DNA of 64,000 nucleotides, taken from an uncultured Hyphomicrobiales bacterium (GTDB taxonomy: Bacteria; Bacteroidota; Ignavibacteria; Kapaibacteriales; UBA2268). Below the pieces are notes generated by a model. That model ran no database searches. It was not told the origin of the DNA and saw only the letters and a program-made list of their open reading frames with translations. The position numbers and the translations under genes are program-made. The stretch is from NCBI GenBank assembly GCA_964645005.1, contig CAZXYS010000014.1, forward strand, positions 4,644 through 68,643, given 5' to 3'. Below, piece by piece: positions 29,964 through 48,638 of this stretch (within the stretch, counting starts at the first letter, position 1; the number at the start of each line of letters is the position of its first letter).

Positions 29964-32900
29964 CTATCGATTAATCATTAAAGAACCTGTCACGGGTTCG
30001 ACGTAAAGCACATTTTCAACGTTAATTCTATAATAATACGCTCCAACAGGTACTTTTCTGCCTTTTTTGTCAAAGCCGTCCCAATAAATCTCATTTTCAC
30101 CAAGGGATAGGTCTTTTTCCAGAGTCCTGATATGCTGTCCAACAGGATTATAGATCCGAATAACAGCAGTTCCGGCGTTTTCCGGTGCTTTATAAGTTAG
30201 ATTGAATGTCGTATTTTGTTCAAAAGGGTTGGGATAGTTCTTGTATTCAGTTATTTCATAGTTCCTGTTGATATTGAATCTATAAAGCACTGTATCCTTG
30301 TTTCCTGTTGCATCTTCTGCAGTAACCTGTATCCAGTGTTCCGTGAACTCGCTTGTTTGATCAAGTGAATCAGGTCTTAGTCTTAACAACAACTTGTATG
30401 ACGGATTCTGAGGATCCGGCTCTTTTATAAAATTATATTCTTTTGTATTATCCTGATTTTGATAATAACCGTTTATCTTAACTCTGATATTATCATTCGG
30501 TATCTCCAGTGGTGAATTATCATATATATTTATTTCGAACAGCGGGTTTTTAGGCAAATAAATACCTTCGTATAATTCCTGGCTGCCCGAGATAACCACA
30601 ATTTGAGGTTGTTCCTGATCTTCTCTGACATTTAAGATCGATTTTGCGGAATTATTAAATTTGTAAATGTCCATATCGGTACCATCCGGAGATAGTTGGA
30701 AGTTAACATCGTTTTCCGGATTATAACTCTTTGTGTTTACTATGAACTTTTCTTCAACTCTTTCATCAGGAAGCAAATGACTCTTTGAAAAATCAAATTG
30801 ATCAATTACAACATCTTCGGAGGATACTTCAGTATTGACTTTTACCTGATCGGCAGTTGTTCTAAGAGAAATATTCCGTATGGCAAAACCTATCTCCGTT
30901 TCTAAACCTCGCAGAACGGGAGTCTGTGATATTTTTATACTGCTCCTGGGGATTGCAAGTTCCGGTTGAGGAATAAATTCTGATCGTATCTCCGAAATAT
31001 AAGGCTCTTCTTTTATATTTTCGCCTCTGTTAAGAGTAATATCAATATCTATATAAGGATAATTCCCTGCTGATATTCTTGATAGATCTACCTTTCCGAA
31101 TTCATCAAACTCCAGTAATAAGTCCTTTTGGCTGCCGGAGACATTGTAACCTTGTACTATACCTTTAAGTTCGGTTAGATTGGGGGCAGTACTTCCGTCA
31201 ATACTGAAATTCTTCCATTCTTTAGCAGGTCCGATTCTGATGGTTTGCACACTTGCGGCTGTATCGTAAATAGGAACTTTTCCGTCGATTACAGCATCCC
31301 TGCCTTCGGGATCATGAGCTTCCACAACTTCATCCGGTACTGCATCTTTGAATGAAAACATTGCGTAGGAGGAGGATTTTTTAACGGAATCAAACAATGT
31401 TGTTGAAAATTCTTCTCTGAATACTTTTTTAAGTGTATCTATTGAACCAATGCTGGGAGGTGTACGCTTTGAAATGGGTACTTCGAAAGACCTGTCACAG
31501 GTAGCTATGAACACGTAATGGTTATTATTTATTGAATCTCTGATAAAATTAACCAGCTTTATCGATGAGGAATCATCCTTCCATGTGTCAAAGCCATGTA
31601 TCTTTCCTTCACCTGTATTTTTGGAGATAGTTACTACGCTGAAGCCCCTTGCATATTCGGTGTTTACATAAACATCAGAGTTTATTTCAATATTAGCCCA
31701 TCTTTTAGAAGGCGGAGTTCCCTTTGATGAAAGGCAGTAATAATCCACTTGTTTGTCAGGAATTTTATATTTGCCATGATTTTCATTGGTCAAATTGAAA
31801 TTATGTTTGTTCGATGATAATTCCTCAGCAGTATTTTGACTCCAATGTACAATTTCGCTGCCGCCTGTTTCAGAAGCATAAAAAGGTACTTTTAGCCATG
31901 TACTGAATTCTTGCTCATTCATGTTTCTTAATCTTGCGAAGAACCAGTAAGATGTACCATTTTCCAGTTCAATATCCGGTTTCCACTGGATGAAGGATTC
32001 ATCAATATCAAGGTCATCCGTATTTGCGCTGATAAGTGCATTCGCGCTGTCGACAGATGAAGTTTTTAGATGCATCTCGTATTCAAATTCACCTTCCTCA
32101 GCAAAGAGGTTTAATACCCTGAAGATCGGTTCACTGGAATTCACATCCCAGAATGCCATGGGATCAAGGACTGATACTCCCGGGGCGAACACATCTATGG
32201 TAGCTGAGACAGCATTATTTTCTCGATGAATCTCATTAGTTTCCTTCTCCGGGTCAATAATAACATCGATCACATGCTGCCCGGGCATATCTTTCACAGG
32301 TATTTTAAATGAGAAATTCTCATTATAGCAGGTACCGTTAATTTCAAAATCATAAATATCAGTTTTTCCATTGTAAATCCTTATAACCCTGACGATGTAT
32401 GGCTCCGGCAGTGATGTCCCGGCATTATAAATCGAACCGGAAATGGTCACCGAGTCATTTTCTGTGGTGATTATACTTGAACCTTCCTCAGATGCTAATT
32501 GAAAGTCACCTTTAAGGAAATATAGATCGGGAACTGTATCAATTTTAATTCTGGTATATGGATCGCCCAGATACAGATAGTGTTCCAGAGCCCTTAATTC
32601 CAGGTCATTTTTTGTTGATAAGGAAGCCTTGCCTGCAAAGAAAATCTCACCAAGTTCTCTTTTAGCATCTTGTTCCATACCCTGAAGCATGTAATACATT
32701 ATCTTTTTCTCAATAAGGGCACTGCTTACGGCTGTAGCACCCATAGACGCTATAGCCCCTTTCTCCGGAGCCATCAGATAAGATTCATTTCGGGAGTAAA
32801 CTTTTGGATTGGCAAATTCACCTGAATTACAGGAAAGCGTAGAAAAAATAAAATACTTGCCGTAATTATTCAGGGTCTGCACCTGCCAACCATCCAAATC

Positions 32901-35783
32901 AAAATATTCTGCTGAACCATGACCAAGGAAATTAGCCCATACTACCCCATCATTTATGATCTTGCGGACTCTACCAGCGTCTTTTTGCCCGATATTGGCT
33001 TCTTCGCTTTTGCACACCGATTCCGTAATACCACAGATCTCAGGACCTTCTATGTATGGAATGAATAATTCCTTGTCTTTGCAGAAGCCTCTTATCTCAG
33101 CAGGACCGTATCCACCCGAAATAAAGAAAAATTTCTTATGCCAGGGGGATATTTTTGAGGTGTCGTATTGAATCAGCTTATCAACAAAGTTTTCCGCAGT
33201 GTCGCTATTCCTGGCAGGAATTCTTCCGACTATAAAGTTGTTAACCTGCTTATCGTTGGATAATCCGTACCATGTATCACTGGTTGGAAGACCAAAGGTT
33301 GGAACAAGATCTTCGTATTGGGAATTCTTCCAGTTTAATTTAGGATCCCAGCTCGCATCGCCAAACATTATAGCATGTGTCGGTGCTTGTTTCCAATTAT
33401 CAAGTGTATATCTCAGAAAATTCCTTATGGCGTGAGGAGATTTCTTGCCATAGTTAAATTCTTTGTAAATGTCATCAACATTTACAACTTCAATATCGAT
33501 ATCTTGAAAATCTTTTCTGTGTTTAGCAAGTCTTTGTGCCTGATTTAATAAATTTTCATGAGAAATTATCAAGCCGTCGGCAGCGTTATTAGTGTCAGTC
33601 AGGTTAGACGAATTGGTCTTTTTTATCACAGCTTCTTCAACGGTTTTAGAATCATTCATGAAGAATTTGTAAGATGTCTGCTCCTTTATTTTAAGTTCAG
33701 CTTTGTAAGAAATCCCGGCATTGTCCTGAACAAATTTGGAAATTGCTGTCATACCGCTGTTTAATTGATCTCCACTGACAGATGTGCCTTTGCGGAAATA
33801 AAATGCATAGACATCACCCGCAGAATGAGAAGAAGCCCTGTTTAAACCGGCTGCCTTTAATTTATTCAGAAGTCCCTGATGTCCTATAGAGTTCTCGCCG
33901 TTATATACTCCTGATATAAATGTATTGTCAGGCAGGGCATCTATCAATGAAGAAACGTCACCCGGATTTTCATAAGTTTGTACTTTGGGAGTCCCCGGTG
34001 ATTCTACGGGTAGATACATAATGTGAAATCCTCTTTTCTTAGAGATCATACCGGAATCATTGATAACGACAGTAGCTGTAGGTTTATCGCCTGCAATACC
34101 ACCCATGTGAACTGTTGTACCATTCGATGCTTGTAGAAATTTAATGGTTTTGTTTAAGCTGTCAATAGCTGCTATATCAGGGGATTTGAAGCCTGTTACC
34201 TCAATTGAAGAGTTTTCATCAAGATATCCCGGATCAAATATGATATTACCTTTGTATGCCACCGGCTTTGAATTACCTTCCACAGCGTAATAGTCTATAC
34301 CTGCTTTTTTGGTCTTGAATGTATCGGTTGCCATTAACCGCAAACCTACATAATTCAAACCCGGCAGGATTGAGTTTTTTGTAAACTTACCTGTAAACTT
34401 TTTTTCTCTTATAAGGTCGAATCTTTGGATGTCCGCAGTGTCATAATTAACAAGAAAACGCAGTTCATATGAAGGTATGTGCCATGTTCCGTCAATAAAA
34501 ATTGAGTCCAATAAAGTCGTGGCTGCGGTGCTGACATCTATTGATTCCGAAGGATCATCAGATGGAAATACAAAAACAGGCTGTTGAAATTCTTTATCAA
34601 AGCTCTGGTCTATTATTGTCTGGTACCAACCTTCCGGGAAAATATTTTCAGTCTTAAGTAAATATTTGCCAATATAATATATCTTGTCATATTCGATTCT
34701 TTGGTTTATCTTAACCGAGCTAACTTTCTCGACAGTATTTACAGGATCGACATGCGAACTCAACCTGATTCCCCCGGAATTTTGATCATAATACAAATAG
34801 AAAGGCTCATTTTCAGTGTAATGATCAAACCAAGTTGAATCTCCAGCAGCCCGCCTGCCTAGAAAGTAGATTTTCTCATTTCCATCTATGGTATTATTAT
34901 CATCTGATATGTAGCATGGATATTCTTCTCCTTTATAAATCAGATGTAAGTTACTGGTTTTTTTGTTGTTCCATTCAGGGGCGTGCTTCAGGATATCCGT
35001 GACGTCAATCCTGGCTGCTCCGTCGGTAGTAGTCATGACTTTAAGATATTTCCTGTTAGGATCATACCAATCCGGAGCTGATAATATCTCAGGTGTTGTC
35101 TCCCCCTTATTGATCTTAACTTTTGAGTTAGAAACAAGATATCTAAGATGTTTCTTATTTACCACTCCCGAGAATAGTGCCCTTTCACCATTTGAAAAAG
35201 CTGCATCGGACATCGCTGCTTCCTTACCAAAGTCAATATCGACGGTGGATTGATCTAATACAGCTAAATCTCCGGACAGAGGATCATATCTAAAGGGCTG
35301 TATCGTAATCAAATATTCAGGCACTCCGCGCTGCTCACCTAAGTATTCGTAACTTACTGATGGTTCAATTATTTCTTTTGTAATTTGAATATCACTTCCG
35401 TTAATGAACCTTTTTCGTATGGAATCTTGCAGTAGATTACTGTACAAAGGTAAGTTTTTCTTACCGAGTGATTTAATGTTAAACTCGTCAATTTTAGTAT
35501 TTAAATTTGCGTTATGAGGTACTGCAGCAATGAATTTAATTACAGGAATTGCATAACCCGAAAAATTAACAAAAGGATCAACATGATCAGCATTATTGAT
35601 TGTTAACAGCTCAGTTTGATCATGGGTTAAGTATGAGGAAGTGCCAATGTCAGTTTGATTTAATTTTACTCTTAAACCTTCCGGCTTCTCAATTATTTCA
35701 ATGTTTTTGGCAAATAACGTATTTATTGCAAAAAACATTACAAGTATGAATGCGAGTTGTCTCTTCATTTGTATTCCATTCAA
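29964..35783 (-). CDS. gingipain-like cysteine peptidase (MEROPS C25 family) with a T9SS C-terminal sorting domain, 1939 aa
   Basis: A signal peptide is present. The His/Cys catalytic pair is in C25 order and spacing: ANFLGHGSAEYF ... FIFSTLSCNSGEF (compare gingipain GHGS ... CVNGDF). The C-terminus NYPNPFEQNTTFNLTY...AVIRIYNPVGQHIRTL...YYYRINV matches the Por secretion tail. Confidence 0.75.
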   Translation of the reverse strand: MNGIQMKRQLAFILVMFFAINTLFAKNIEIIEKPEGLRVKLNQTDIGTSSYLTHDQTELLTINNADHVDPFVNFSGYAIPVIKFIAAVPHNANLNTKIDEFNIKSLGKKNLPLYSNLLQDSIRKRFINGSDIQITKEIIEPSVSYEYLGEQRGVPEYLITIQPFRYDPLSGDLAVLDQSTVDIDFGKEAAMSDAAFSNGERALFSGVVNKKHLRYLVSNSKVKINKGETTPEILSAPDWYDPNRKYLKVMTTTDGAARIDVTDILKHAPEWNNKKTSNLHLIYKGEEYPCYISDDNNTIDGNEKIYFLGRRAAGDSTWFDHYTENEPFYLYYDQNSGGIRLSSHVDPVNTVEKVSSVKINQRIEYDKIYYIGKYLLKTENIFPEGWYQTIIDQSFDKEFQQPVFVFPSDDPSESIDVSTAATTLLDSIFIDGTWHIPSYELRFLVNYDTADIQRFDLIREKKFTGKFTKNSILPGLNYVGLRLMATDTFKTKKAGIDYYAVEGNSKPVAYKGNIIFDPGYLDENSSIEVTGFKSPDIAAIDSLNKTIKFLQASNGTTVHMGGIAGDKPTATVVINDSGMISKKRGFHIMYLPVESPGTPKVQTYENPGDVSSLIDALPDNTFISGVYNGENSIGHQGLLNKLKAAGLNRASSHSAGDVYAFYFRKGTSVSGDQLNSGMTAISKFVQDNAGISYKAELKIKEQTSYKFFMNDSKTVEEAVIKKTNSSNLTDTNNAADGLIISHENLLNQAQRLAKHRKDFQDIDIEVVNVDDIYKEFNYGKKSPHAIRNFLRYTLDNWKQAPTHAIMFGDASWDPKLNWKNSQYEDLVPTFGLPTSDTWYGLSNDKQVNNFIVGRIPARNSDTAENFVDKLIQYDTSKISPWHKKFFFISGGYGPAEIRGFCKDKELFIPYIEGPEICGITESVCKSEEANIGQKDAGRVRKIINDGVVWANFLGHGSAEYFDLDGWQVQTLNNYGKYFIFSTLSCNSGEFANPKVYSRNESYLMAPEKGAIASMGATAVSSALIEKKIMYYMLQGMEQDAKRELGEIFFAGKASLSTKNDLELRALEHYLYLGDPYTRIKIDTVPDLYFLKGDFQLASEEGSSIITTENDSVTISGSIYNAGTSLPEPYIVRVIRIYNGKTDIYDFEINGTCYNENFSFKIPVKDMPGQHVIDVIIDPEKETNEIHRENNAVSATIDVFAPGVSVLDPMAFWDVNSSEPIFRVLNLFAEEGEFEYEMHLKTSSVDSANALISANTDDLDIDESFIQWKPDIELENGTSYWFFARLRNMNEQEFSTWLKVPFYASETGGSEIVHWSQNTAEELSSNKHNFNLTNENHGKYKIPDKQVDYYCLSSKGTPPSKRWANIEINSDVYVNTEYARGFSVVTISKNTGEGKIHGFDTWKDDSSSIKLVNFIRDSINNNHYVFIATCDRSFEVPISKRTPPSIGSIDTLKKVFREEFSTTLFDSVKKSSSYAMFSFKDAVPDEVVEAHDPEGRDAVIDGKVPIYDTAASVQTIRIGPAKEWKNFSIDGSTAPNLTELKGIVQGYNVSGSQKDLLLEFDEFGKVDLSRISAGNYPYIDIDITLNRGENIKEEPYISEIRSEFIPQPELAIPRSSIKISQTPVLRGLETEIGFAIRNISLRTTADQVKVNTEVSSEDVVIDQFDFSKSHLLPDERVEEKFIVNTKSYNPENDVNFQLSPDGTDMDIYKFNNSAKSILNVREDQEQPQIVVISGSQELYEGIYLPKNPLFEINIYDNSPLEIPNDNIRVKINGYYQNQDNTKEYNFIKEPDPQNPSYKLLLRLRPDSLDQTSEFTEHWIQVTAEDATGNKDTVLYRFNINRNYEITEYKNYPNPFEQNTTFNLTYKAPENAGTAVIRIYNPVGQHIRTLEKDLSLGENEIYWDGFDKKGRKVPVGAYYYRINVENVLYVEPVTGSLMINR

Positions 35784-37603: not shown

Positions 37604-39457
37604 TTATTTTATATACAGTTTGAAGTTCTTGGGATTATACCATTTTTCCAACAGTTCAACAAATTCTTTGTAATTAGGAGGTTTAATAAAGTCACCGCTA
37701 ATACTAAGACTCCCTTTTATCGTAAAATATTGTACGTCTTCAATCACTGAAATATTAACTTTACCGGCTTCATTGGAAAAATCAATGTTTCCTATGTTAT
37801 GAACAATACTGCTGTTTTCGGGTATCTTGATCTTAAAGTGATATGATTCATTGACATTCCTATGTAATTTGACCGGTGTCTTTCTATCTGACTTAATTGC
37901 CGGAAAATCGAGAGTGTTGAAATCACCGGGATTAAAAGGGATGCTGACTTCCTTAAGATTTCCGGTATTTTGTGGCGGATTTTGGTCATTAATTTTAAAT
38001 TTCGCAGCGAAAGGAGCAAAATCTCCCGCTATGAAGTCGGGATTTTGAAGTTCCGCATCATAAGAATGTTTTGAGAAAGTGCTTTTGACTAATTTTTCAT
38101 TTTCCGATCTCTTTAATCCAGCCTGATAATGCCCGCCAATTTTCACTATACCATTGCCGGAAAATTTGCCTGTAGAGTCAATTTCCAGATTACATGATAA
38201 CTCAAAAATTCCCTTTTGAGCTTTTATCTTGTCTGTTTGCTTCCGAATTTCCGGCTCCCAAGGAGCAAAAAATTTCTTCCCATATAAATATTCAGGTGTA
38301 AAGCTGCTCTGATGTTTGTTTGGATCGAGATACACCTTCTTACCACCTTTTTCGCTGGGCGAGGCTATAACAATGGGATTTTCCAATTCCCCAAGAAACA
38401 ACTTATCATCCGGCATTGAAGCATCTTGCGAGAAAATTGCAGGATAAGCGCCAATATCCAGCGCTTTAAGCATTGCTGCAAATAGAATAGCCCTGTCGAG
38501 ATGATTCCCGACATTTCTGTCGAAGGCTTCCTGCGCCGGCATGGGTGTGCAGCCGGTTTTTAGCGGATCGCAGTTTCCCGTGCCTACATTATTATGGATA
38601 TGATCATAGATTTTGATGATCTTATCCATAGCCGTAAGTTCGTCGGTGGTGAGTTCTTTCACCGATTCTACCGCTTTGTCGTTAAGTGCGAATATATCTT
38701 CTGACTTACTTTTTATATGATCGATTATTTCGTTCTTTTTGGCAGATGAAAAATACAGTGCAGGGACAAATTTCTCGAAATCCGGCTGCTGCGTTTCCTG
38801 TGCCACAAGAGGAACATTTTTAAATTGCCATGTATAAACGTGGAAGCCCTCTTCATTTGTTTTGACCGGGGATTGTGAGCTATTTGCGAGATGGTGCTCA
38901 AAATATTGTCCGTTTGGCACTTTCACGATTACATTAAATTCTCTAACGGGGCTGCGCTTGCCTAAGACCACCTTCCCCTGCAAGCCTGGCAGAAAGTCCT
39001 TCTCTGATGTCAGGGTATAAGCAAATTCCACCGTGCAGCCAAACTCGAGCCCGGTATGTGTGACTACCATTTCCCTTAGATTCATCTCTGGAACATTATC
39101 GGACGCACATCTCGGCAGCACCTCGTTGAATGCATTTTCCGGCGAATGAACAATCTCGCCGGTGGTCATCTTAGTTGCCGACCGTTGGATTTCCAGTTCC
39201 TGATAGTCGGGATTGTAAACAATGAAAGATTCGCCCGACTTTCGATTAAGCGCATAGCTCGTAAGCACTTTTAATTCATGGGAATAGGTGAATTCAGTCG
39301 TGCCGTCCGGCTTCAACACGTAAACATGCGTTATCTTCTTATAGACTTCGTCGGCATTCTCTTCGGAATAACCGGCAGCATGTAAATTGCCGGCTAATAT
39401 TAATGCTAATAAGATTGTAAAAAAATTAGATTTCGATTTGTTCATTGATAATTCCAT
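37604..39457 (-). CDS. secreted transglutaminase-like-fold protein, predicted catalytically inactive (DUF3858-like)
   Basis: Signal peptide present. In the core motif VGNHLDRAILFAAMLKALDIGAYPAIF, His sits where transglutaminase-like enzymes carry the Cys. It is the last gene of an apparent three-gene operon. Confidence 0.55.
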   Translation of the reverse strand: MELSMNKSKSNFFTILLALILAGNLHAAGYSEENADEVYKKITHVYVLKPDGTTEFTYSHELKVLTSYALNRKSGESFIVYNPDYQELEIQRSATKMTTGEIVHSPENAFNEVLPRCASDNVPEMNLREMVVTHTGLEFGCTVEFAYTLTSEKDFLPGLQGKVVLGKRSPVREFNVIVKVPNGQYFEHHLANSSQSPVKTNEEGFHVYTWQFKNVPLVAQETQQPDFEKFVPALYFSSAKKNEIIDHIKSKSEDIFALNDKAVESVKELTTDELTAMDKIIKIYDHIHNNVGTGNCDPLKTGCTPMPAQEAFDRNVGNHLDRAILFAAMLKALDIGAYPAIFSQDASMPDDKLFLGELENPIVIASPSEKGGKKVYLDPNKHQSSFTPEYLYGKKFFAPWEPEIRKQTDKIKAQKGIFELSCNLEIDSTGKFSGNGIVKIGGHYQAGLKRSENEKLVKSTFSKHSYDAELQNPDFIAGDFAPFAAKFKINDQNPPQNTGNLKEVSIPFNPGDFNTLDFPAIKSDRKTPVKLHRNVNESYHFKIKIPENSSIVHNIGNIDFSNEAGKVNISVIEDVQYFTIKGSLSISGDFIKPPNYKEFVELLEKWYNPKNFKLYIK

Positions 39458-39462
39458 TATTG

Positions 39463-40689
39463 TTAATTCATCTTTTTCATTGGTAAAGTAAAGTAAAATG
39501 TAGTGCCTTTATTCTCTTCGCTTTCAACCCAGATCGAGCCTCCGTTTTTCTCAACGAATTCTTTGCAAAGGATCAATCCAAGCCCGGTTCCCTTTTCTTC
39601 TTTCGTTCCGGGTCTCGAGGATTGCTCTTCAATTTTGAACAGCTTATTTTTAATACTCTCATTCATGCCCATACCGCTGTCGTTTACGGACATAATGATC
39701 TTCTCATGGTTCTTCTCAGCTCGAATAGTGATATTATCATCTTTTCCACAGAATTTTATACTATTCGAAACAAGATTCCGTAAAACCGTGGCAATCATAT
39801 TTCTATCTGCGTAAGCCTGAATTTTTTCATCTATTTCATTTTTTACTATTACACCCTTAGAATTCGCAAAGTTTTTTAAAGTATAAGTGATTTGATTTGC
39901 CACTTCATTAAGATCAAGATCTTCAGGGTTGAAATCCACTTTTCCAAGCTGAGATCGTGCCCATCCCAATAAATTGGTTAGCAAATTATATGTTTGTCGG
40001 GAAGATTCGTTAATCATACTGATAAGTTCTTTTCTATCTTCTTCGGAAATTTCGTCGGATGCTTCTAATAGCTCTTTCGAAGCATTCAAAAGCACATTGA
40101 ACGGATTACGCAGATCATGCGCTATTATGGAAAAGAACTTATCTTTCCTCGTGTTCAGCTCTTTGTATTTTTCTTTCGATTCTTTTAGCGCAATTTCAGC
40201 TCTTTTTTTCTCGTCTATATCGAAAACTATTCCGGCAAGCTTCAGCGGATTACCGTTCTCATCTCTCTTAGTAACTATTCCCCGATCATAATACCATTTC
40301 CAGTTACCATCTTTCGTGCGGATTCGGTATTCTGTTTCGTAGGCGGGTTTTCTCATTTCGAGGTGGTCGCGCATATTCTGCATGGTATTTTCATAGTCAT
40401 CCGGATGAAGCATTTCCGTAAAACCCCAGACATCAGGATCGATTTCGCCCTCTTTATATCCAAGAGTTTCAATTTTTCTTTTGTTATAAATAACTTTGCC
40501 GGTGGGAACATCCCATTCCCAGCGCCCCAGATTACCTGCCCAGGCTAAATTGATGTCATCGTCTCTTAAAGAGAACTCTTCTTCCTGTCTTTTCTGCTCG
40601 AATTCAAGCACCTCGAGCTCTTTGATACGATTTTTCAGCCGCTCGTTTTCTTCGATAAGTTCTTGTTTGGTTCTTTTATCATCAGCCAT
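39463..40689 (-). CDS. cytoplasmic sensor histidine kinase (coiled-coil – PAS – HisKA – HATPase)
   Basis: No TM segment. PAS features (EWDVPTGKVIYNKRKIETLGY), H-box FSIIAHDLRNPFN, and the ATP lid GTGLGLILCKEFVEKNGGSIWVES are present. Confidence 0.9.
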   Translation of the reverse strand: MADDKRTKQELIEENERLKNRIKELEVLEFEQKRQEEEFSLRDDDINLAWAGNLGRWEWDVPTGKVIYNKRKIETLGYKEGEIDPDVWGFTEMLHPDDYENTMQNMRDHLEMRKPAYETEYRIRTKDGNWKWYYDRGIVTKRDENGNPLKLAGIVFDIDEKKRAEIALKESKEKYKELNTRKDKFFSIIAHDLRNPFNVLLNASKELLEASDEISEEDRKELISMINESSRQTYNLLTNLLGWARSQLGKVDFNPEDLDLNEVANQITYTLKNFANSKGVIVKNEIDEKIQAYADRNMIATVLRNLVSNSIKFCGKDDNITIRAEKNHEKIIMSVNDSGMGMNESIKNKLFKIEEQSSRPGTKEEKGTGLGLILCKEFVEKNGGSIWVESEENKGTTFYFTLPMKKMN

Positions 40690-40700
40690 AGTGAAAATCC

Positions 40701-42779
40701 TTACCTTTTTAATATAACCGGTTTATCAGAAAGTTTTTTCCTCTGCACAAGCGCCGCTTTGAATTTATCCCAATCTTCCGGCTTATATATTCTTTTTTCC
40801 ATTCTGTGTTCGACGGAAAATTTAAGATTATTTCCTTCAATCTTATATTCAGACTCAAAGCTCGCCGGATCGCCTTTTTCATAAGAACCTTCGATAACTT
40901 CGAATTCAGGAACTTTATCAGCATTTTGGTAATCCGGCAATTTCATTGTCTCATTTATCTTCACCAGTTTTGAGCATCTGATGCGAAAGCCGTATTCTCT
41001 TTCTTGCAAGTTAGTGTCAATCTCTAATTCATATCCGAAAAAATAATCGTCAAACGGATTCTCGGCAGTGATCGGTTTGAACATTAGCTTATCTTCTGTC
41101 ACAAAAGCGTAGTCGGGTATTCTAAAGCTTAGTTCAATATTGAACGGCTCGCTGATGTCGGACGGATCGGTATGCGTCAAACTTGTGATTTCAGCCTTAG
41201 GTGATATATCTGCGAATAACTGCGGGAAATATTCATCGCGCGAACTCTTGAAGCTGCGCAGGAATGCCCTTCTTATCAGGGCGCCGGTCTGACCTTCGGC
41301 TTCGATGGTTATTTTTCCTTTGAGCGTGCCATCCTTTTTGAGTTCAGTATCAGCACTGATATTGAGATAATGATTTTCCGCAGGTGATACCGGTGTCGTC
41401 ATCAAATCGGCGCCGCCGGGAATACCCATAAGCAATTGCTGCTGCTGTTCGGCGCTGGACCATAGTTCTCTAACGCCGGGCACCCAGGTCGGATCGAGCA
41501 ATATCCAGTCACCATCAGATAGTTTAGCTAAAGTCACACTGTGATTGAACTGATCGGCGGGAATTCTGTCTATCCGCGAGCCAGCCATAGTCATCGCCGG
41601 ATAGGACTCGAAACCGGCTGCGCGAAGCATTGTCACCAGCATACCGGCTTTGTCCTTGCATACACCGCAGCGGTCAGTGAAAGTCATTTTACCTGTGTGC
41701 AGGGTATATCCTTCGCCTTCGCCCATCGACAAGCCGGAATAGCGAATATTTTCCGCCACCCAGTGAGTCAATATCTTGATTTTTTCCATTTCGTCATCAA
41801 CGCCTTTCAGCAGTTCATCAGTCTTTTCCTGAACATCCTGTGTAACTTCGAAACTGCCGAAATCCTCGTTCACATTATGAAACCAGACCGCTTTGGCGTA
41901 CCAGTCCGGGGATGTGGACATGAGCAGCTTCGGCGCTACGTTTGATGCATTTACCATATTCGGCTCGCTGCTGAAAGGCTGCATATCCTTCTTGTACCAG
42001 CAATATTCGGTCTTGCCCGAGCGGTTAATTTCTTCTTTATGAGCGATTTTCGCAGTGCCGTAAGTTTTCTTATGCGGATTTACCTGAAGTGTAATATCTT
42101 TGTCTTTTTCTTGGTGGAAACGTATGTACGAAGTCAATTCCCCATTATAAACTTCGTATTGCAGCGGTTTATCCTTCGGCATGAAAATCCTGTAAACTTT
42201 TTCTTCAACAGGTGCCGATGAACGAAAATGAACTATATCGTAATAATGCCCCTTCATCGGCGGAACGAAGCGCTGTTCTTCGCCTTCGCTGTCGCCGAGA
42301 AGCGCGTAAGTGAAACCTTTGCGGTGGATGACAGTCTCGATGGCATCGCCCGGCTCGAGCCGCCCGAATTCCAACGTTTTATTTCTCATGCCCCAGTAAA
42401 TCATGCGCGCAGGGGCTGTATAATCGAGAATGCTCGAGGTATCTGTTTTTTCTACAGAACCATCCTTTCTGTAGATCTTTGCCGAGATTATATCTATCGC
42501 GGCGGATTGCGGATCGTAGTTATAGTGGCGATGCCTGTATTGTTTGGCGCCTTTCCACGTGAGAATTTTCGTCAATTTATGCATTTCCACGCGGCTAAGC
42601 CCGGATTCCTTGACATCCACTTCTGTGCTGTCGTACAGCACGACTACATCTGCATTGGGATATTCTTTCGTTTTTTCGATCAGTTCTCTATTTGGGTCTT
42701 TATTCTGCGAAAAACTTGTATAACAAAACAACAATATTAATATTATTGCCAGAGGAAAGTTCAATTTTAATGCGCTCAT
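40701..42779 (-). CDS. secreted transglutaminase-like cysteine protease superfamily protein (DUF3857-like N-terminus + TGase core)
   Basis: Signal peptide present. The core motif is DRCGVCKDKAGMLVTMLRAAGFESYPAM (the G-x-C...A...LR..G..A pattern of the transglutaminase-like core). Confidence 0.7.
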   Translation of the reverse strand: MSALKLNFPLAIILILLFCYTSFSQNKDPNRELIEKTKEYPNADVVVLYDSTEVDVKESGLSRVEMHKLTKILTWKGAKQYRHRHYNYDPQSAAIDIISAKIYRKDGSVEKTDTSSILDYTAPARMIYWGMRNKTLEFGRLEPGDAIETVIHRKGFTYALLGDSEGEEQRFVPPMKGHYYDIVHFRSSAPVEEKVYRIFMPKDKPLQYEVYNGELTSYIRFHQEKDKDITLQVNPHKKTYGTAKIAHKEEINRSGKTEYCWYKKDMQPFSSEPNMVNASNVAPKLLMSTSPDWYAKAVWFHNVNEDFGSFEVTQDVQEKTDELLKGVDDEMEKIKILTHWVAENIRYSGLSMGEGEGYTLHTGKMTFTDRCGVCKDKAGMLVTMLRAAGFESYPAMTMAGSRIDRIPADQFNHSVTLAKLSDGDWILLDPTWVPGVRELWSSAEQQQQLLMGIPGGADLMTTPVSPAENHYLNISADTELKKDGTLKGKITIEAEGQTGALIRRAFLRSFKSSRDEYFPQLFADISPKAEITSLTHTDPSDISEPFNIELSFRIPDYAFVTEDKLMFKPITAENPFDDYFFGYELEIDTNLQEREYGFRIRCSKLVKINETMKLPDYQNADKVPEFEVIEGSYEKGDPASFESEYKIEGNNLKFSVEHRMEKRIYKPEDWDKFKAALVQRKKLSDKPVILKR

Positions 42780-43151: not shown

Positions 43152-46100
43152 ATGTTAACAAATGATACCTCTCACAGCAGTAGATTGCATACTACACTGT
43201 TGACAATTGTATTAATGTTCTTTGCTTTCAGCCAAAATGCATTGTCGCAGGACGCAGCCTACACCGGAAATCCGCGCCCTTTTCATCAGGGATATGTTAA
43301 CCACCCGGTAACAGTTGAAGCCGGAATTGCAAATTTAGAAAACATACCCGTCCGGAATATTAGAATACACTTTCGAATTATTTACATTGATGGGGATCAG
43401 GTTGTTTTCGAACATCGGGATACGCTGGAATCCCTTGATGGTAATTCTTCCGTTAGAATTAAAGCGCCGGAAAGATGGGCGCCGCAAAATGAAGGGCAAT
43501 ATCTTGCTCAATTCTATTTTGAGGCGGATAATGATCAGGAACCGGCTAATAACGCTGTAAACAATGAATTGAGAATCACAGAATGGCCCATGCCATTTGA
43601 TTTGACAATAGAGCAAATAAATTTCACCAGACCATTCGAACAGTTTAACTCAAATATCGGCTTTTTCACATTTACTTATGAGCCGTCTGATAATGTTCAA
43701 TTCGTAAATATCATGGCTGCTCTTCCAAACAGCTCAGAGCCGCCTGTTTGGATTGTTAAGAATTTCCCGATAAGTCCATTCCAATCAAAGCAGACAGTCT
43801 CTGTCTGGGCGGATTTTAAGCCACTGCAAATTGAAAATGGCACCGACATCCATGATTTGATGATTGATTACCAGGTAACCGACGAGATCATCACCGAAGG
43901 ATTCACGATGGATAACGACTATCCTTTGGAAGTCGAGGATGTAGAATACAATGTGGACAGCGATATAACAGAAGTAATCCCGTCCGAAATTCCCACTGAC
44001 ATTCCCGAAATAATGTGGGATCCCGGGGAAATTTACTGGGATTATCGCGGATGCGAAGTTCCTAACATCGATCTGGATTCTTCCGAACATAATCCAGACG
44101 ATGAGCCGGGCTATGAAGGCGACTGGAACGCATGCGGTCCTGCAAGTACCGCAAACAGTATGCAATGGCTCGAGGATAACAACGATAATATTCCCAGCTC
44201 CGGCACAACACACCGCGAAAAAATGAAAGAAATGAGCGGAATGATGGAGCGCGGCAATGAAGACGGCGTCACCACTAACCAGATGCTAAAAGGAAAGCTC
44301 GGCTATATTGACAAGCATAAGCTGCCTATAAAAGTCAAATTCCAGAGTTATTTCGAAAGGGCTGATTCAGTGGAATCACCAAATGATAAATACGGGCATT
44401 CGGCTGAAAACCAGAGTGAATCAACCGGCGCCCCGCCAACTTTCGAATGGATTAAAGAAGAGATGGCAAACGGCGAAGATGTTGAGATAATGTTCGGCTG
44501 GTACGACCGCTCTGGCAACAGACACGGCGGACACTGGGTTGTTCTGACTGGCGTCAGTCAGGTTGGCAATAATACTAAAGGTCTGTACTTCAAAGATGAC
44601 CTGCATCAAGACAGAGAAGGCGGCACGCGCCAGCAATATGTCAACTGGGTCGAAGGCGATGACGGATGGTCGCGCCTTGTCGGTTTGGAAGGACCCAACA
44701 ACTACTGCTGGGTGGAAAGCGCCATTTCCGAAAGCTATGATCCGACAGTAACTCACGATATACAGGATATTCAAATCAATCAGTTGAATTACGACTCATT
44801 CTTCGATGTGTTCACATCTCTCAAATCCCACTTCAAATTCGATTTTGTTCCTGAAGATTATCCGCGATATCTGAATGTATTTGCAAATGATGTTGACGGC
44901 GATAGAGAATGGATACTGCGGAATATTCTGCTGCCGCCATTCGAAGTGAGAAGTGAACTCGCCGTTTGGTGGGATATGAGCGTTCTCGGATACGAAGAAG
45001 GCGACGAGATAGATGAACTTGAAATAGGATTCAAAGTAGATACTGATTATATCAACGAGGAAACTTCTCAAACTTACACTGTCGGCAATTGGCAGCCTAT
45101 ACCCGTCAATGATGTTGAATACAATAAAAAATTGAACACAGTTGAGCAAGACGACGAAAAGCTTGATATAGACATCGAAGTGACATACCTTAGAGATTTC
45201 GAACTCGGCGAAGATATAAAATGGCATTACCGCGGGTGCGAGGTTCCGAACATCGATCTTGACTCTGCCCGAAACAATCCGAATACCGATACAAGCTATG
45301 CCGGTGATGCAAACGCCTGCGGGCCTGCCGGCGCAGCCAACAGCCTTCACTGGCTCGAGACCACGCATCCCAAGCTCAGTGAGAACACCACTCACAGAGA
45401 AAAGCTGAAAGAACTAAGCGATATGATGGATCGCGAGGATAATGGGGGCGTATTCAGAAGAAATTTCATAGAAGCAAAGCTTGAATATATCGATAAATAC
45501 AAGCTTCCAATAAAAGTCAAATTCCGGAGCTGGAAGTTCGGCACCGATTCAATACCTTCACCTGATGATAAATACGGTCATTCGGCAGACAATCAGAATG
45601 ATTCGGCAAATTCATTCCCAAGTTTTGACTGGATGATGAACGAAATGAGAAACGGTGAAGACGTTGAGCTTGAGCTGGGCTATTATGATTCCACAGGCAG
45701 CCGCGGCGGCGGACACTGGGTCACGATCACCGGCGCCAGCGATGTCGGCACTGCACAGGGGTTTTATTTCAAAGATGATATAGATCAATCGGACAGCGGC
45801 GGAACTGAACAGGAATACTGCAACTGGGAAACTTATGAAGGTATGCCATACCTGCCACAACTCTCAACTAAAGACGAAGTTGCGGTTGTCGAGACTGTCG
45901 TTTCCGAAAGCTATGACGCAACTGTATCTCATGATATTAAGGATGTTAAGATTGAGAAGATCAATTACGACATCGGACCCTCGATGTTCGAAGATCAACC
46001 GGGCAAAGGATTGATCACGTTTAAATTCATTCCCGAAGAGGACGATCTTCGCTATGTAAATATGAAGGCGAAAACCAAAAATGACGAAGAATTCTGGGTT

Positions 46101-48638
46101 TGCAGGAATGTATTGCTGCCGCCATTCCAGGATACGAGTGATCTGTCAGTCTGGTTTGATTACGGCTGGCTGGAATATGATCGCGGCGAAATTGATGAAC
46201 TCAGTTTCCTCGACCTGGCTTACAAGATCACTGAAATACCTCTGGCAGAGAGTGAACTTAACTTCAAGGATTATAGAGAAATAGAAGTTTTCGAACTCAA
46301 TTACAATAAGAAATTGAACACTCTTGACGAAGATATAACAAAGTTAGATTTAGCTGAACCCGAACTTAAACCTATAACACCGTTTAAAGAAGTTACCTGG
46401 CATTACAGAGGCTGCGAGGTTCCGAACATCGATCTTGACTCGTCGAAGAATAATCCTTCTACTGTTACGGGTTACGCAGGCGACAGAAATGCCTGCGGAC
46501 CGGCGGCGGCGGCAAACAGCCTGCAATGGCTTGATGATGAGGACGACAACATCGATGATGACAACTCGCACCGTGACAAGCTCAAAGAACTGAGCAAAAT
46601 GATGAAACGCGAGGATAACGGCGGTGTTTACAGGAAGGACTTCATTGAAGCCAAGCTTGAATATATCGACAAGCATAAACTGCCGATCAAGGTCAAATTC
46701 CAGGGATGGAAATTCGGCGCTGACGACGTCGACTCGCCAAATTCCAAATACGGACATAAGGCTCATAATGAGAATGATTCGGCAAAAATGCCTCCCAAAT
46801 GGGATTGGATCATTAGTGAAATGAAGAATGACGAAGACGTCGAACTCGAATTCGGCTACTACGATTCAACCGGTACCCGCCGCGGCGGTCACTGGGTAAC
46901 CGTTACCGGCGTCAGCGATAATGGCAATTACAGAGGAATATATATCAAGGATGACGGCGATCAATTGGATTCCGGCGGAACCCGCCAGCAGTACGTAAAT
47001 CTGGATACTGCTCACGGATATACTTATCTCAAGCAGATTTCATCGAGCAAATATACGTGCTATGTAGAAACGGTGGTCTCCGAAAGCTATGATTCCACTA
47101 TGACATTCGAGGAACCGGAAGACCCCGTCAATATAGAAATTGTGGAATTGAATCTCAGAGGTCGAGGTGACTTTCATATAGATTCTTTCTTCGATATCTA
47201 CACAGAGATCACATTGCCGGATTCCAACGGCAAAGATAAAGATAAATTCCTGAATATGTTTGCAAGATCGCCGGGAAGTGACAGCTTCACGAGGCTCTTC
47301 CCGCTGAAGTTCCCGGCATCTAAGAAGGATACAAACGATCCTGTGCTTGAAGAACGCTTTACTTTCAAACCTATTCGCGTTGAAGGATCAACTAAGAAAA
47401 ACAAAGACGAAATACTCTCATCTCATCAGTTAGAAATTGCTTATGTCCTGGCGGACAGCCTGCTGTCCGACGATTACGAGCCTGCTGACTGGGAAACCTA
47501 CACGGCTGCCGGCAGCAATACCATAACACTGCCGAATGATGCGCTCAGCGATGAATCATACAATCTCAACCGCGTTCAGCCAAGACGGATAAGACTCGAC
47601 GCTTCGGCCTCTCAATTCTCTATGAGGCATGATAAGCCGTCTCTTGATCCGGATAATACTCAGTATAATCCGAGCACGGTTGACGGCTACGCAGGCGATA
47701 TGAACGCCGGCGGTCCCGCCGCAGCCGCTAACGGCATGGGTTGGCTCGAAATGACCCATGACGCGGTAGACACCGAGCACAGCGACAGGATCAAAATGTA
47801 CAGATATAGCAATTATGCTGGCAGAGAAGATGAACTGGGCGTTTACACCAACGACATGATCAAATCGCTGCTCAGCTTCATAGATAATAACAAAGTACCG
47901 GTAGGAGTGGAATTCCGGAGCTTCAAGCTCGGTACGGATAATATAGCCTCACCTGTCGAGCTTTACGGGCATGAAGCGAAGAACATGAATGATGCACCGG
48001 ACGACGGTCCTGATTGGAACTGGGTCAAAGAGAAGCTCGACAACGGTTACGACTTAATGCTCGAATACGGCATCTACGACTCTACCGGTCAGAGAATCGC
48101 CGGTCATTGGGTAAATGTCACAGGCTACGCAGATTACGAGACGGCTCAGGCTATCTACTTCAACTATGATCTCGACCAGCAGAATGAAAGCGATGACAGA
48201 GATTTCGTATCCGAATGGCGCACCGATCAGGACCACGCTTACCTGATGCAGTTCACTTCGGATAATCTTGTTTGCTGGGTCGAGAGTGTTATAGCTAGCA
48301 AGTATGATGAGACTGTTGAATTTGAACCGGGAGATGTTCAGGAACTGCTTAACAGCAAAGATAAACTAAATCTTTCGGTTTACAGGAATCCGAGCGCTGT
48401 CACGGAAGAGATAAACATAAACTTCATTCTTCCTGAGGCAGAGTTTGTCTCGATCGATTTGTACGACCTGAACGGCAGACTGATACACCACATCTACGAC
48501 GGCTACAAGAATTCCGGCGAAGCCACCATTAAATGGGACGGCAGAAATTCGAAGGGCGCCAGAGTATCCAACGGCGCCTATCTGATAATAGTGACAGCCA
48601 ACGATTATCAGTCAGCAGTGAAGATCATACGCGAATAA
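43152..48638 (+). CDS. 1828-aa T9SS-cargo protein with four tandem ~395-aa modules, each carrying a papain-fold-like Cys…His domain (fourth module Cys→Gly); novel architecture
   Basis: Signal peptide present. The motif YRGCEVPNIDLDS..NP....GYAGD.NACGPAAAANSLQWLE ... GGHWVTVTG.SD recurs four times at ~1185-bp spacing (Cys sites at ~44128, 45318, 46494, 47709). The C-terminus LSVYRNPSAVTEEININFILPEAEFVSIDLYDLNGRLI...GAYLIIVTANDYQSAVKIIRE is T9SS-tail-like. Confidence 0.8.
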   Translation: MLTNDTSHSSRLHTTLLTIVLMFFAFSQNALSQDAAYTGNPRPFHQGYVNHPVTVEAGIANLENIPVRNIRIHFRIIYIDGDQVVFEHRDTLESLDGNSSVRIKAPERWAPQNEGQYLAQFYFEADNDQEPANNAVNNELRITEWPMPFDLTIEQINFTRPFEQFNSNIGFFTFTYEPSDNVQFVNIMAALPNSSEPPVWIVKNFPISPFQSKQTVSVWADFKPLQIENGTDIHDLMIDYQVTDEIITEGFTMDNDYPLEVEDVEYNVDSDITEVIPSEIPTDIPEIMWDPGEIYWDYRGCEVPNIDLDSSEHNPDDEPGYEGDWNACGPASTANSMQWLEDNNDNIPSSGTTHREKMKEMSGMMERGNEDGVTTNQMLKGKLGYIDKHKLPIKVKFQSYFERADSVESPNDKYGHSAENQSESTGAPPTFEWIKEEMANGEDVEIMFGWYDRSGNRHGGHWVVLTGVSQVGNNTKGLYFKDDLHQDREGGTRQQYVNWVEGDDGWSRLVGLEGPNNYCWVESAISESYDPTVTHDIQDIQINQLNYDSFFDVFTSLKSHFKFDFVPEDYPRYLNVFANDVDGDREWILRNILLPPFEVRSELAVWWDMSVLGYEEGDEIDELEIGFKVDTDYINEETSQTYTVGNWQPIPVNDVEYNKKLNTVEQDDEKLDIDIEVTYLRDFELGEDIKWHYRGCEVPNIDLDSARNNPNTDTSYAGDANACGPAGAANSLHWLETTHPKLSENTTHREKLKELSDMMDREDNGGVFRRNFIEAKLEYIDKYKLPIKVKFRSWKFGTDSIPSPDDKYGHSADNQNDSANSFPSFDWMMNEMRNGEDVELELGYYDSTGSRGGGHWVTITGASDVGTAQGFYFKDDIDQSDSGGTEQEYCNWETYEGMPYLPQLSTKDEVAVVETVVSESYDATVSHDIKDVKIEKINYDIGPSMFEDQPGKGLITFKFIPEEDDLRYVNMKAKTKNDEEFWVCRNVLLPPFQDTSDLSVWFDYGWLEYDRGEIDELSFLDLAYKITEIPLAESELNFKDYREIEVFELNYNKKLNTLDEDITKLDLAEPELKPITPFKEVTWHYRGCEVPNIDLDSSKNNPSTVTGYAGDRNACGPAAAANSLQWLDDEDDNIDDDNSHRDKLKELSKMMKREDNGGVYRKDFIEAKLEYIDKHKLPIKVKFQGWKFGADDVDSPNSKYGHKAHNENDSAKMPPKWDWIISEMKNDEDVELEFGYYDSTGTRRGGHWVTVTGVSDNGNYRGIYIKDDGDQLDSGGTRQQYVNLDTAHGYTYLKQISSSKYTCYVETVVSESYDSTMTFEEPEDPVNIEIVELNLRGRGDFHIDSFFDIYTEITLPDSNGKDKDKFLNMFARSPGSDSFTRLFPLKFPASKKDTNDPVLEERFTFKPIRVEGSTKKNKDEILSSHQLEIAYVLADSLLSDDYEPADWETYTAAGSNTITLPNDALSDESYNLNRVQPRRIRLDASASQFSMRHDKPSLDPDNTQYNPSTVDGYAGDMNAGGPAAAANGMGWLEMTHDAVDTEHSDRIKMYRYSNYAGREDELGVYTNDMIKSLLSFIDNNKVPVGVEFRSFKLGTDNIASPVELYGHEAKNMNDAPDDGPDWNWVKEKLDNGYDLMLEYGIYDSTGQRIAGHWVNVTGYADYETAQAIYFNYDLDQQNESDDRDFVSEWRTDQDHAYLMQFTSDNLVCWVESVIASKYDETVEFEPGDVQELLNSKDKLNLSVYRNPSAVTEEININFILPEAEFVSIDLYDLNGRLIHHIYDGYKNSGEATIKWDGRNSKGARVSNGAYLIIVTANDYQSAVKIIRE

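What the first reader, a model, noticed from the sequence alone, without database searches (positions are those of the whole stretch)
47690..47760. Fourth module has the putative nucleophile Cys replaced by Gly (NAGGPAAAANGMGWLE): a built-in pseudo-enzyme module
Modules 1–3 read NACGPA(S/G/A).ANS(M/L)(Q/H)WL. Module 4 reads NAGGPAAAANGMGWLE, a single TGC→GGC change. The His motif is also degraded (AGHWVNVTGYAD versus GGHWVT.TG.SD). The rest of the module is conserved, so it looks like a retained but catalytically dead copy. Dead terminal modules on secreted multi-enzyme proteins often act as substrate-binding or regulatory units.
Basis: seen in the sequence. Interest (0 to 1): 0.6.

Follow-up and report, generated by a model that had tools for sequence, protein, structure and literature searches.

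The report
Dead fourth protease module, secreted poly-protease
A 1828-residue secreted protein carries four copies of a papain-type cysteine protease domain, and the last copy has lost its catalytic cysteine but keeps its fold, as do many relatives, so it is a fairly ordinary "pseudo-enzyme" module in an undescribed protease family.

Summary
In the ORF at 43152-48638 (+), modules 1-3 read NACGPA with TGC, and module 4 reads NAGGPA with GGC at 47709-47711. A second assembly has the identical sequence.

An AlphaFold model of module 4 (pLDDT 91.7) matches staphopains and other papain-fold peptidases. Gly1520 sits at the N-terminus of the central helix, where the nucleophile belongs. His1652 and Asp1673 occupy the other two triad positions.

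- **His motif:** it is intact, not degraded.
- **Extent of change:** this is not one change in a conserved module. Module 4 differs at 13 of 31 family-invariant positions (modules 1-3: 0, 1, 0), and its upstream spacer is also eroded.

Across 186 family proteins, 27 of 286 modules lack the Cys. These occur almost only in multi-module proteins and usually in last position. In four syntenic Kapabacteria orthologues the dead module has dN/dS of about 0.05-0.11, but dS is saturated.

Best reading: a non-catalytic papain-fold module kept next to the type IX secretion sorting domain, probably for binding or as a scaffold. That role is inferred, not shown. Interest is moderate.

The parts
43152..48638 (+). 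ORF of 1828 aa: signal peptide, N-terminal beta domain, four units (beta-sandwich spacer plus papain-fold module), and a type IX secretion C-terminal sorting domain
43152..43247 (+). Probable signal peptide (about aa 1-32, ...LLTIVLMFFAFSQNALS|QD)
   Evidence: Read from the translation; no predictor was run
44004..44792 (+). Module 1 (aa 285-547), Cys328/His/Asp complete; Cys codon TGC at 44133-44135
45183..45968 (+). Module 2 (aa 678-939), triad complete; Cys codon TGC at 45318-45320
46359..47150 (+). Module 3 (aa 1070-1333), triad complete; Cys codon TGC at 46494-46496. Modelled together with its spacer: pLDDT 87.3, pTM 0.89
47151..47573 (+). Spacer 4 (aa 1334-1474): diverged beta-sandwich spacer. 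The signature W and N of the W...N..LPPF motif are replaced by R and L
   Evidence: 17 bits against the spacer profile, versus 127-167 bits for spacers 1-3
47574..48356 (+). Module 4 (aa 1475-1735): papain-fold module without the nucleophile Cys (pseudo-peptidase)
47628..47630 (+). His1493, at the position of the Cys in the YRGC motif of modules 1-3
47709..47711 (+). GGC codon for Gly1520, at the nucleophile position; first residue of the central helix in the model
48105..48107 (+). His1652: the catalytic-position His is retained, in a beta strand
48168..48170 (+). Asp1673: probable third triad residue, Asp in all 131 modules tabulated (the only invariant column of A2), 21 residues after the His
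48378..48629 (+). C-terminal sorting domain for type IX secretion (aa 1743-1826)
   Evidence: TIGR04183, 27.1 bits, cut-off 23; FlgD_ig 37.5 bits, cut-off 27; Por_Secre_tail 20.8 bits, below its cut-off of 27

Best explanation
The gene encodes a secreted protein, probably anchored to the cell surface by type IX secretion. It carries four tandem units, each a beta-sandwich spacer followed by a papain-fold (clan CA, staphopain-like) domain.

Units 1-3 have a complete Cys-His-Asp set and are predicted cysteine peptidases. Unit 4 lies next to the C-terminal sorting domain. It keeps the fold, the His and the Asp, but has Gly at the nucleophile position. It has also lost about 40% of the residues that are invariant in active modules, so it most likely cannot form the acyl-enzyme and is a pseudo-peptidase.

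Cys-less modules recur in this family almost only in multi-module proteins. They are usually the last module, and in one orthologue group the dead module has dN far below dS. The dead unit is therefore most likely kept for a non-catalytic job: holding substrate or a surface ligand in the remnant cleft, or serving as a folded stalk between the cell-surface anchor and the three active modules.

- **Shown:** the substitution, the fold, the recurrence, and the selection signal in relatives.
- **Inferred:** loss of activity, surface anchoring, and the binding or stalk role.
For: - **Substitution.** GGC versus TGC; identical in a second assembly.
- **Fold.** The module 4 model has pLDDT 91.7 and pTM 0.89. 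Gly1520 is the first residue of helix 51-66, His1652 lies in strand 179-192, and Asp1673 lies at the end of strand 197-203. Foldseek against the PDB gives staphopains C, B and A (E 7e-5 to 2e-4, probability 1.00, TM 0.55-0.61 on the target), then prostaphopain B, T-Mac, Der p 1 and cathepsins. The unit 3 model gives the same hits.
- **Family survey.** Of 286 modules, 258 have Cys+His and 27 lack the Cys. Only 2 of 104 single-module proteins have a dead module, against 29 of 82 multi-module proteins. The dead module is last in 26 of 32 cases, and in 7 of 8 four-module proteins.
- **Erosion.** Module 4 differs at 13 of 31 invariant columns. Spacer 4 scores 17 bits against 127-167.
- **Selection in relatives.** In four syntenic orthologues the dead module has dN 0.188, dS above 1.5, and dN/dS 0.05-0.11. 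It evolves faster than the active modules (dN 0.067-0.143) but slower than its spacer and the sorting domain.
- **Secretion.** TIGR04183 scores above its cut-off. Other type IX secretion cargo lie in the window.
- **Precedent.** The HlyB C39-like domain lost its Cys, kept its His, and binds substrate (PMC8277102).
Against: - No activity data exist for any member of the family, so even modules 1-3 are only predicted peptidases.
- No Pfam or NCBIfam model and no PDB sequence reaches significance on the modules.
- The window's own module 4 has no close orthologue, so selection on it could not be measured. The nearest four-module relative, P0009, is 38.5% identical in module 4.
- dS is saturated in the orthologue test, so the dN/dS values are rough.
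- Module 4 still has His, Asp, Gln1676, Asn1518 and Trp1531, so a residual or different chemistry is not excluded.
- Whether module 4 shares an ancient origin with the other dead modules or lost its Cys independently is unresolved (46% of bootstrap replicates).
- The survey mixes two overlapping cluster sets, so its counts are not phylogenetically independent.
Confidence: 0.7

Rival explanations
1. Base-call or assembly error, or a very recent inactivating mutation: module 4 is really an active module with Cys.
For: TGC to GGC is a single-base difference. Read-level data were not available.
Against: - The sequence is identical in a second assembly.
- Module 4 also differs at 12 other family-invariant positions, and lacks the YRGC motif and the spacer signature, as other Cys-less modules do.
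- Gly is the commonest residue at this position in Cys-less modules of relatives (11 of 27).
Confidence: 0.03
2. Module 4 is still an enzyme with a different nucleophile or chemistry, for example using the retained His/Asp with water, or the lone Cys1708.
For: - His1652, Asp1673, Gln1676, Asn1518 and Trp1531 are retained.
- A Cys at the CWVES position is present in 91% of dead modules but only 36% of active ones.
- Seven of the 27 Cys-less modules keep the His.
Against: - Twenty of the 27 Cys-less modules have also lost the His, so the class as a whole is not built around the His.
- Thirteen of 31 invariant positions are changed in module 4, including the acidic GEDVE motif.
- Cys1708 equivalents also occur in active modules 1 and 3. 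Its distance to the cleft could not be measured.
Confidence: 0.07
3. Unit 4 is a decaying relic with no function of its own, tolerated only because it must stay in frame to keep the downstream sorting domain attached.
For: - Erosion is strong across spacer 4 and module 4.
- Module 4 is the fastest-evolving module in every comparison.
- The closest homologue, P0002 (49% identity), has three modules and no dead one.
Against: - Frame preservation alone would not maintain a confidently predicted fold (pLDDT 91.7).
- It would not give dN/dS of about 0.05-0.11 in the orthologue group.
- It would not explain the repeated presence of a dead last module in several lineages.
Confidence: 0.15

Closest known systems
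Staphopains A, B and C (MEROPS C47) and prostaphopain B
   Same: - Best structural matches.
- Papain fold with the nucleophile at the N-terminus of the central helix.
- His, then Asx about 20 residues later. The staphopain spacing is recalled from memory.
- A beta-rich domain precedes the peptidase, as in the zymogen.
   Different: - No detectable sequence similarity.
- An insertion of about 35 residues between Cys and His.
- Four tandem copies, type IX secretion, and Asp rather than Asn as the third residue.
- Module 4 lacks the Cys.
C39-like domain (CLD) of HlyB-type ABC transporters
   Same: A clan CA domain that lost the catalytic Cys, kept the His, and is used to bind substrate without cleaving it (PMC8277102). 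This is the best functional precedent.
   Different: It is a cytoplasmic, single domain fused to a transporter. Its Cys is replaced by Tyr/Leu/Asn, and it binds on the face opposite the old cleft. Here the domain is extracellular and sits in tandem with three intact copies.
Pfam PF13529 Peptidase_C39_2
   Same: It is the only sequence family with any signal: 'faint' precomputed hits on this protein and several homologues.
   Different: hmmscan of the whole protein (E up to 1) and of each module (E up to 10) finds nothing. It is not a member by Pfam's threshold.
T-Mac / TDE0362 of Treponema denticola and IdeS/Mac-1 (C66)
   Same: Top whole-unit structural hit: a beta domain followed by a papain-fold peptidase, with the Cys at a helix N-terminus (PMC11833123).
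   Different: The whole-unit TM score is low (about 0.3). The organism and secretion route differ, there is a single catalytic domain, and there is no dead copy.
CspBA of Clostridioides difficile (active subtilisin-like protease fused to a pseudoprotease)
   Same: An active protease and a catalytically dead paralogue are encoded in one polypeptide, and the dead copy is retained for a non-catalytic role (PMC7200643; title and abstract only).
   Different: It has a serine-protease fold, is intracellular or spore-associated, and has two domains rather than four.

Membership tests
Papain-like (clan CA) cysteine peptidase fold | Two-lobed papain fold recognisable by structure comparison | tested here: met
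   Module 4 model with pLDDT 91.7. Foldseek probability 1.00 to staphopains, T-Mac, Der p 1 and cathepsins. The unit 3 model gives the same hits.
Papain-like (clan CA) cysteine peptidase fold | Nucleophile Cys at the N-terminus of the central helix | tested here: not met
   Module 4 has Gly1520 there. Modules 1-3 have Cys; in the unit 3 model Cys179 is the first residue of helix 179-194.
Papain-like (clan CA) cysteine peptidase fold | General-base His on a beta strand of the second lobe | tested here: met
   His1652 lies in strand 179-192 of the model. Residue-level superposition on a solved enzyme was not available.
Papain-like (clan CA) cysteine peptidase fold | Asn/Asp that orients the His, on the following strand | tested here: met
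   Asp1673, Asp in all 131 modules tabulated and the only invariant column of A2, lies 21 residues after the His at the end of strand 197-203.
Papain-like (clan CA) cysteine peptidase fold | Oxyanion-hole Gln a few residues before the Cys | tested here: inconclusive
   There is no Gln. A conserved Asn sits at Cys-2 and an Asp at Cys-4. Which residue plays this role cannot be decided without coordinates.
MEROPS C47 staphopain / Pfam PF05543 | Significant sequence match to the family model | tested here: not met
   No Pfam hit on the whole protein (E up to 1) or the modules (E up to 10). A profile search of PDB sequences found nothing at E up to 10.
Pfam PF13529 Peptidase_C39_2 | Score above Pfam's gathering threshold | tested here: not met
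   hmmscan gives no hit. Only a 'faint' precomputed hit exists.
Type IX secretion cargo (type A C-terminal sorting domain) | C-terminal sorting domain matching TIGR04183 or PF18962 | tested here: met
   TIGR04183 scores 27.1 bits against a cut-off of 23. PF18962 scores 20.8, below its cut-off of 27, and FlgD_ig scores 37.5.
Type IX secretion cargo (type A C-terminal sorting domain) | N-terminal Sec signal peptide and a host that has the secretion machinery | not tested
   A signal-peptide-like N-terminus is visible. Other proteins with sorting domains lie in the window. No machinery genes were looked for.
Pseudoenzyme (dead paralogue retained by selection) | Homologous to active enzymes but lacking an essential catalytic residue | tested here: met
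Pseudoenzyme (dead paralogue retained by selection) | Maintained under purifying selection | tested here: inconclusive
   Met for the dead module of four syntenic Kapabacteria orthologues (dN/dS 0.05-0.11, dS saturated). It could not be tested for the window's own module 4, which has no close orthologue.
Pseudoenzyme (dead paralogue retained by selection) | Lack of catalytic activity | not testable with these tools
   Needs an enzyme assay or activity-based probe labelling.

The most novel reading that the evidence does not exclude
The protein belongs to an undescribed family of surface-anchored 'poly-staphopain-like' proteases of Ignavibacteria, Kapabacteria and Bacteroidota. In this family a selected, catalytically dead unit is placed nearest the membrane, as a substrate-capture or pedestal module for the active units.

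In addition, the second conserved Cys (the YRGC motif) may form a redox or zymogen latch with the nucleophile Cys. That would explain why it is present in 202 of 259 Cys-containing modules and in 0 of 27 Cys-less ones.
Probability: 0.15. Interest if true: 0.6.

Novelty: new variant of a known kind. Interest (0 to 1): 0.38.

Why it matters
Dead copies of enzymes are common, and papain-fold examples are well documented, so the principle is not new.

What is new:
- **The setting.** This is a protease family with no curated model and no solved structure. A search of 1.84 billion cluster representatives gives about 500 hits at E up to 1e-10, all so far from uncultured FCB-group genomes.
- **The architecture.** The family is built as tandem arrays on type IX secretion cargo, with a recurrent rule that the module next to the sorting domain is the dead one.

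If the dead unit is a binding or stalk module, it would show how these bacteria organise several proteases on their surface. It would also give a natural pair, active versus dead, for working out the family's substrate.

Tried and rejected
- **Sequence family searches.** Pfam and NCBIfam scans of the whole protein and of each module found only the C-terminal sorting and FlgD_ig domains. A profile search of PDB sequences found nothing at E up to 10.
- **Phylogeny.** A neighbour-joining tree grouped 14 of the 15 Cys-less modules. After removing the catalytic columns, bootstrapping did not support this: the all-dead clade appeared in 1% of replicates, and window module 4 paired only with dead modules in 46%. 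I therefore do not claim a single ancient origin.
- **Genome scans.** A tighter alignment worked.
- **Alignment size.** An alignment of all 133 new representatives was too large to be copied. The sequences were recovered through a smaller one.
- **dN/dS.** dS is saturated (above 1, some undefined), so only the inequality dN much less than dS is used.
- **Cys-Cys distance.** The idea that the YRGC Cys pairs with the nucleophile could not be tested, because model coordinates are not exposed.
- **Literature.** A search for type IX secretion papain-like proteases returned nothing.
Full report
**What is in the sequence**

The finding lies in a single ORF, 43152-48638 on the + strand, of 1828 aa. 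The motif NA[CG]GPA occurs four times.
- At aa 326, 721 and 1113 it reads NACGPA, with the Cys codon TGC at nt 44133, 45318 and 46494.
- At aa 1518 it reads NAGGPA, with GGC at nt 47709-47711.

The gene and 6.7 kb around it are identical base for base in a Logan assembly of run SRR7048219. That assembly may rest on the same reads, so it argues against an assembly artefact but does not replace a look at the reads.

**Architecture**

A profile built from the four copies delimits modules at aa 285-547, 678-939, 1070-1333 and 1475-1735. Each is preceded by a spacer of about 130 aa.

The N-terminus looks like a signal peptide (read). The C-terminus matches the type IX secretion sorting domain: TIGR04183 scores 27.1 bits against a cut-off of 23, and FlgD_ig scores 37.5 bits.

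No curated family matches the modules themselves.
- Pfam and NCBIfam scans of the whole protein (E up to 1) and a Pfam scan of each module (E up to 10) give nothing relevant.
- A profile search of all PDB sequences gives nothing.
- The only hint is a 'faint' precomputed hit to PF13529, Peptidase_C39_2.

**What the module is**

An AlphaFold2 model of module 4, built with 42 aligned modules, is confident (pLDDT 91.7, pTM 0.89). Foldseek against the PDB returns papain-fold cysteine peptidases:
- staphopains C, B and A (E 7e-5 to 2e-4, probability 1.00, TM 0.55-0.61 normalised on the target);
- prostaphopain B;
- the T-Mac protease of Treponema denticola;
- Der p 1 and cathepsins.

In the model, Gly1520 is the first residue of the long helix 51-66. 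This is the place of the nucleophile in this fold; in T-Mac, for example, Cys412 sits 'at the N-terminal end of alpha3' (PMC11833123). His1652 lies in strand 179-192. Asp1673, which is Asp in all 131 modules tabulated, lies at the end of the next strand, 21 residues later.

A model of spacer 3 plus module 3 (pLDDT 87.3, pTM 0.89) puts Cys at the first residue of the equivalent helix. It shows the spacer as a beta sandwich packed against the peptidase domain. Its best whole-chain matches are T-Mac (beta domain plus papain fold) and prostaphopain B.

Modules 1-3 are predicted clan CA peptidases with a Cys-His-Asp set.

- **The His motif is not degraded.** The His is there. The Ala two residues before it and the Asn three residues after it both occur in modules with a full triad: 8 and 21 of 258.
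- **The module is not 'one change in a conserved copy'.**
  - Module 4 is 35% identical to module 1, while modules 2 and 3 are 53-54% identical to module 1.
  - Of the 31 columns conserved in at least 90% of 258 Cys+His modules, modules 1-3 differ at 0, 1 and 0, and module 4 differs at 13. The changes include S to G after the helix Asn, two Lys, and the acidic GEDVE motif, which becomes GYDLM.
  - The N-terminal W-x-YRGC-x-VPNIDLD motif is replaced by FSMRHDKPSLDPD.
  - Spacer 4 scores 17 bits against the spacer profile, versus 127-167 bits for spacers 1-3. It has lost the signature Trp and Asn.

The whole fourth unit has drifted away from the active type while keeping its fold.

**Relatives**

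A search of 5.8 billion proteins found 53 homologues, with one to five modules each. A search of 1.84 billion cluster representatives gave 1268 hits at E up to 1e-3 and 518 at E up to 1e-10.

Genome hits are all uncultured FCB-group bacteria: Ignavibacteria, Kapabacteria, Chlorobiota, several Bacteroidota families, and KSB1.

In 186 proteins I could place 301 modules, 286 of them with both catalytic columns aligned.
- 258 have Cys and His, and 27 lack the Cys. At the Cys position these 27 have Gly 11, Ser 8, Asp 4, and others 4.
- Of those 27, 20 also lack the His and 7, including the window's module 4, keep it.
- Dead modules occur in 2 of 104 single-module proteins and in 29 of 82 multi-module proteins.
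- The dead module is the last one in 26 of 32 cases, and in 7 of 8 four-module proteins.

These counts mix two overlapping cluster sets and are not phylogenetically independent, but the pattern is clear.

The nearest relative by overall identity, P0002 (49%), has three modules and no dead one. The only other protein with the same four-module layout and a Gly, P0009, is 38.5% identical in module 4.

It is unresolved whether the window's module 4 descends from an old dead lineage or lost its Cys on its own.
- A neighbour-joining tree groups the dead modules, but bootstrap support is poor once the catalytic columns are removed.
- The C-terminal module of P0029 keeps Cys and His but already lacks the YRGC Cys. 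It shares a derived Ser with module 4, so it looks like a live intermediate.

**Is a dead module kept by selection?**

For the window's own module this cannot be measured. I tested it instead in four syntenic orthologues from Kapabacteria, all with a Gly-containing last module.

| Region | mean dN | pairwise dN/dS |
|---|---|---|
| Module 1 (active) | 0.094 | 0.031-0.061 |
| Module 2 (active) | 0.143 | 0.061-0.095 |
| Module 3 (active) | 0.067 | 0.016-0.032 |
| Module 4 (dead) | 0.188 | 0.046-0.109 |
| Spacer 4 | 0.250 | 0.104-0.220 |
| Sorting domain | 0.443 | 0.088-0.269 |

dS is above 1.5 for the dead module in every pair. It is saturated, so the ratios are rough, but dN is clearly far below dS. 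The dead module evolves faster than the active ones but is clearly constrained.

**How it most likely works**

- **Shown:** the nucleophile is missing, the fold and the His/Asp are kept, the unit sits next to the sorting domain, and the arrangement recurs and is constrained in relatives.
- **Inferred from established knowledge of the fold:** without the thiol no acyl-enzyme can form, so module 4 is not a cysteine peptidase.
- **Inferred from knowledge of type IX secretion (my own knowledge, not tested here):** the sorting domain is removed and the new C-terminus is attached to the cell surface. That would make unit 4 the membrane-proximal one.

The most likely role is therefore non-catalytic. 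It may bind substrate or a surface ligand in the remnant cleft, or act as a folded stalk that holds three active modules away from the cell.

The closest precedent is the C39-like domain of HlyB. It lost its Cys, kept its His, and binds the transport substrate (PMC8277102). Inactive papain-fold domains used as scaffolds or binders are listed in a recent classification of the superfamily (PMC10318531).

The rivals are an error, a different chemistry, and a functionless relic. They are set out separately; none is excluded outright, and together they carry about a quarter of the probability.

**An unexplained correlation**

Active modules have only two conserved Cys: the nucleophile, and the Cys of the YRGC motif about 27 residues upstream. 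The YRGC Cys is present in 202 of 259 modules that have the nucleophile and in 0 of 27 that lack it (Fisher p = 1e-16).

This could mean a disulphide latch on the nucleophile. It could also mark a spacer-peptidase junction used for processing, or simply reflect joint decay. Model coordinates are not exposed by the tools, so the distance could not be measured.

**Context**

The window also encodes other predicted secreted proteases and related genes:
- a 1939-aa gingipain-like C25 peptidase with the same kind of C-terminal domain;
- another 1001-aa protein with a type IX secretion sorting domain;
- two transglutaminase-like DUF3857 proteins directly upstream.

This fits a proteolytic, surface-decorated lifestyle.

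**Verdict**

The interpretation as a pseudo-enzyme module is supported in its core and wrong in two details.

The module is a new variant of a known kind: a dead papain-fold domain, here as the recurrent terminal unit of tandem protease arrays in an undescribed family. Interest is moderate. It would rise if the dead unit proved to be a dedicated capture or pedestal module, or if the two-Cys correlation reflects a latch.

Noticed in passing
window 44064-44105, 45249-45290, 46425-46466 (aa 305-318, 700-713, 1092-1105); module 4 equivalent at about 47613-47654: Active modules begin with W-x-YRGC-x-VPNIDLD. The Cys of this motif is present in 202 of 259 modules that have the nucleophile Cys and in 0 of 27 that lack it (Fisher p = 1e-16). 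It could be a disulphide latch, a processing junction, or joint decay.
   Followed up: partly
window 29964-35783 (-): A 1939-aa protein with a Peptidase_C25 (gingipain-like) domain (E 6e-65) and a FlgD_ig C-terminal domain. It is a second large predicted secreted protease close to the gene studied.
   Followed up: no
window 12967-15972 (-): A 1001-aa protein whose only Pfam match is the type IX secretion sorting domain (E 1e-11). Paired internal ORFs of equal length (13803-14258 and 15132-15587) suggest an internal duplication of about 1.3 kb.
   Followed up: no
window 37604-39457 (-) and 40701-42779 (-): Two paralogous DUF3857 proteins flank a PAS histidine kinase (39463-40689) directly upstream of the poly-protease gene. 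One also has a transglutaminase core, which is itself a papain-like fold.
   Followed up: no
P0009, module 2 (aa 673-943): This module has Ser at the nucleophile position, keeps the His, and differs at only 3 of 31 invariant columns. It may be a Ser-nucleophile variant or a very recent loss, unlike the deeply eroded terminal dead modules.
   Followed up: no
P0029, module 2 (aa 687-953): This C-terminal module keeps Cys and His but lacks the YRGC Cys and shares the derived Ser of S-x-YDE with the window's module 4. It is a possible live intermediate on the way to a dead terminal module.
   Followed up: partly
P0054 (3926 aa): Five modules at an exact period of 546 aa, all with Cys and His. This looks like a recent tandem amplification of the whole unit in another member of the family.
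   Followed up: no
L002-L005 (loci of P0019, P0026, P0017, P0005): The four-module orthologues in Kapabacteria are syntenic: pyruvate:ferredoxin oxidoreductase, then dihydroorotate dehydrogenase, then the poly-protease gene. This context differs from the window's, so the gene family is not tied to one neighbourhood.
   Followed up: partly
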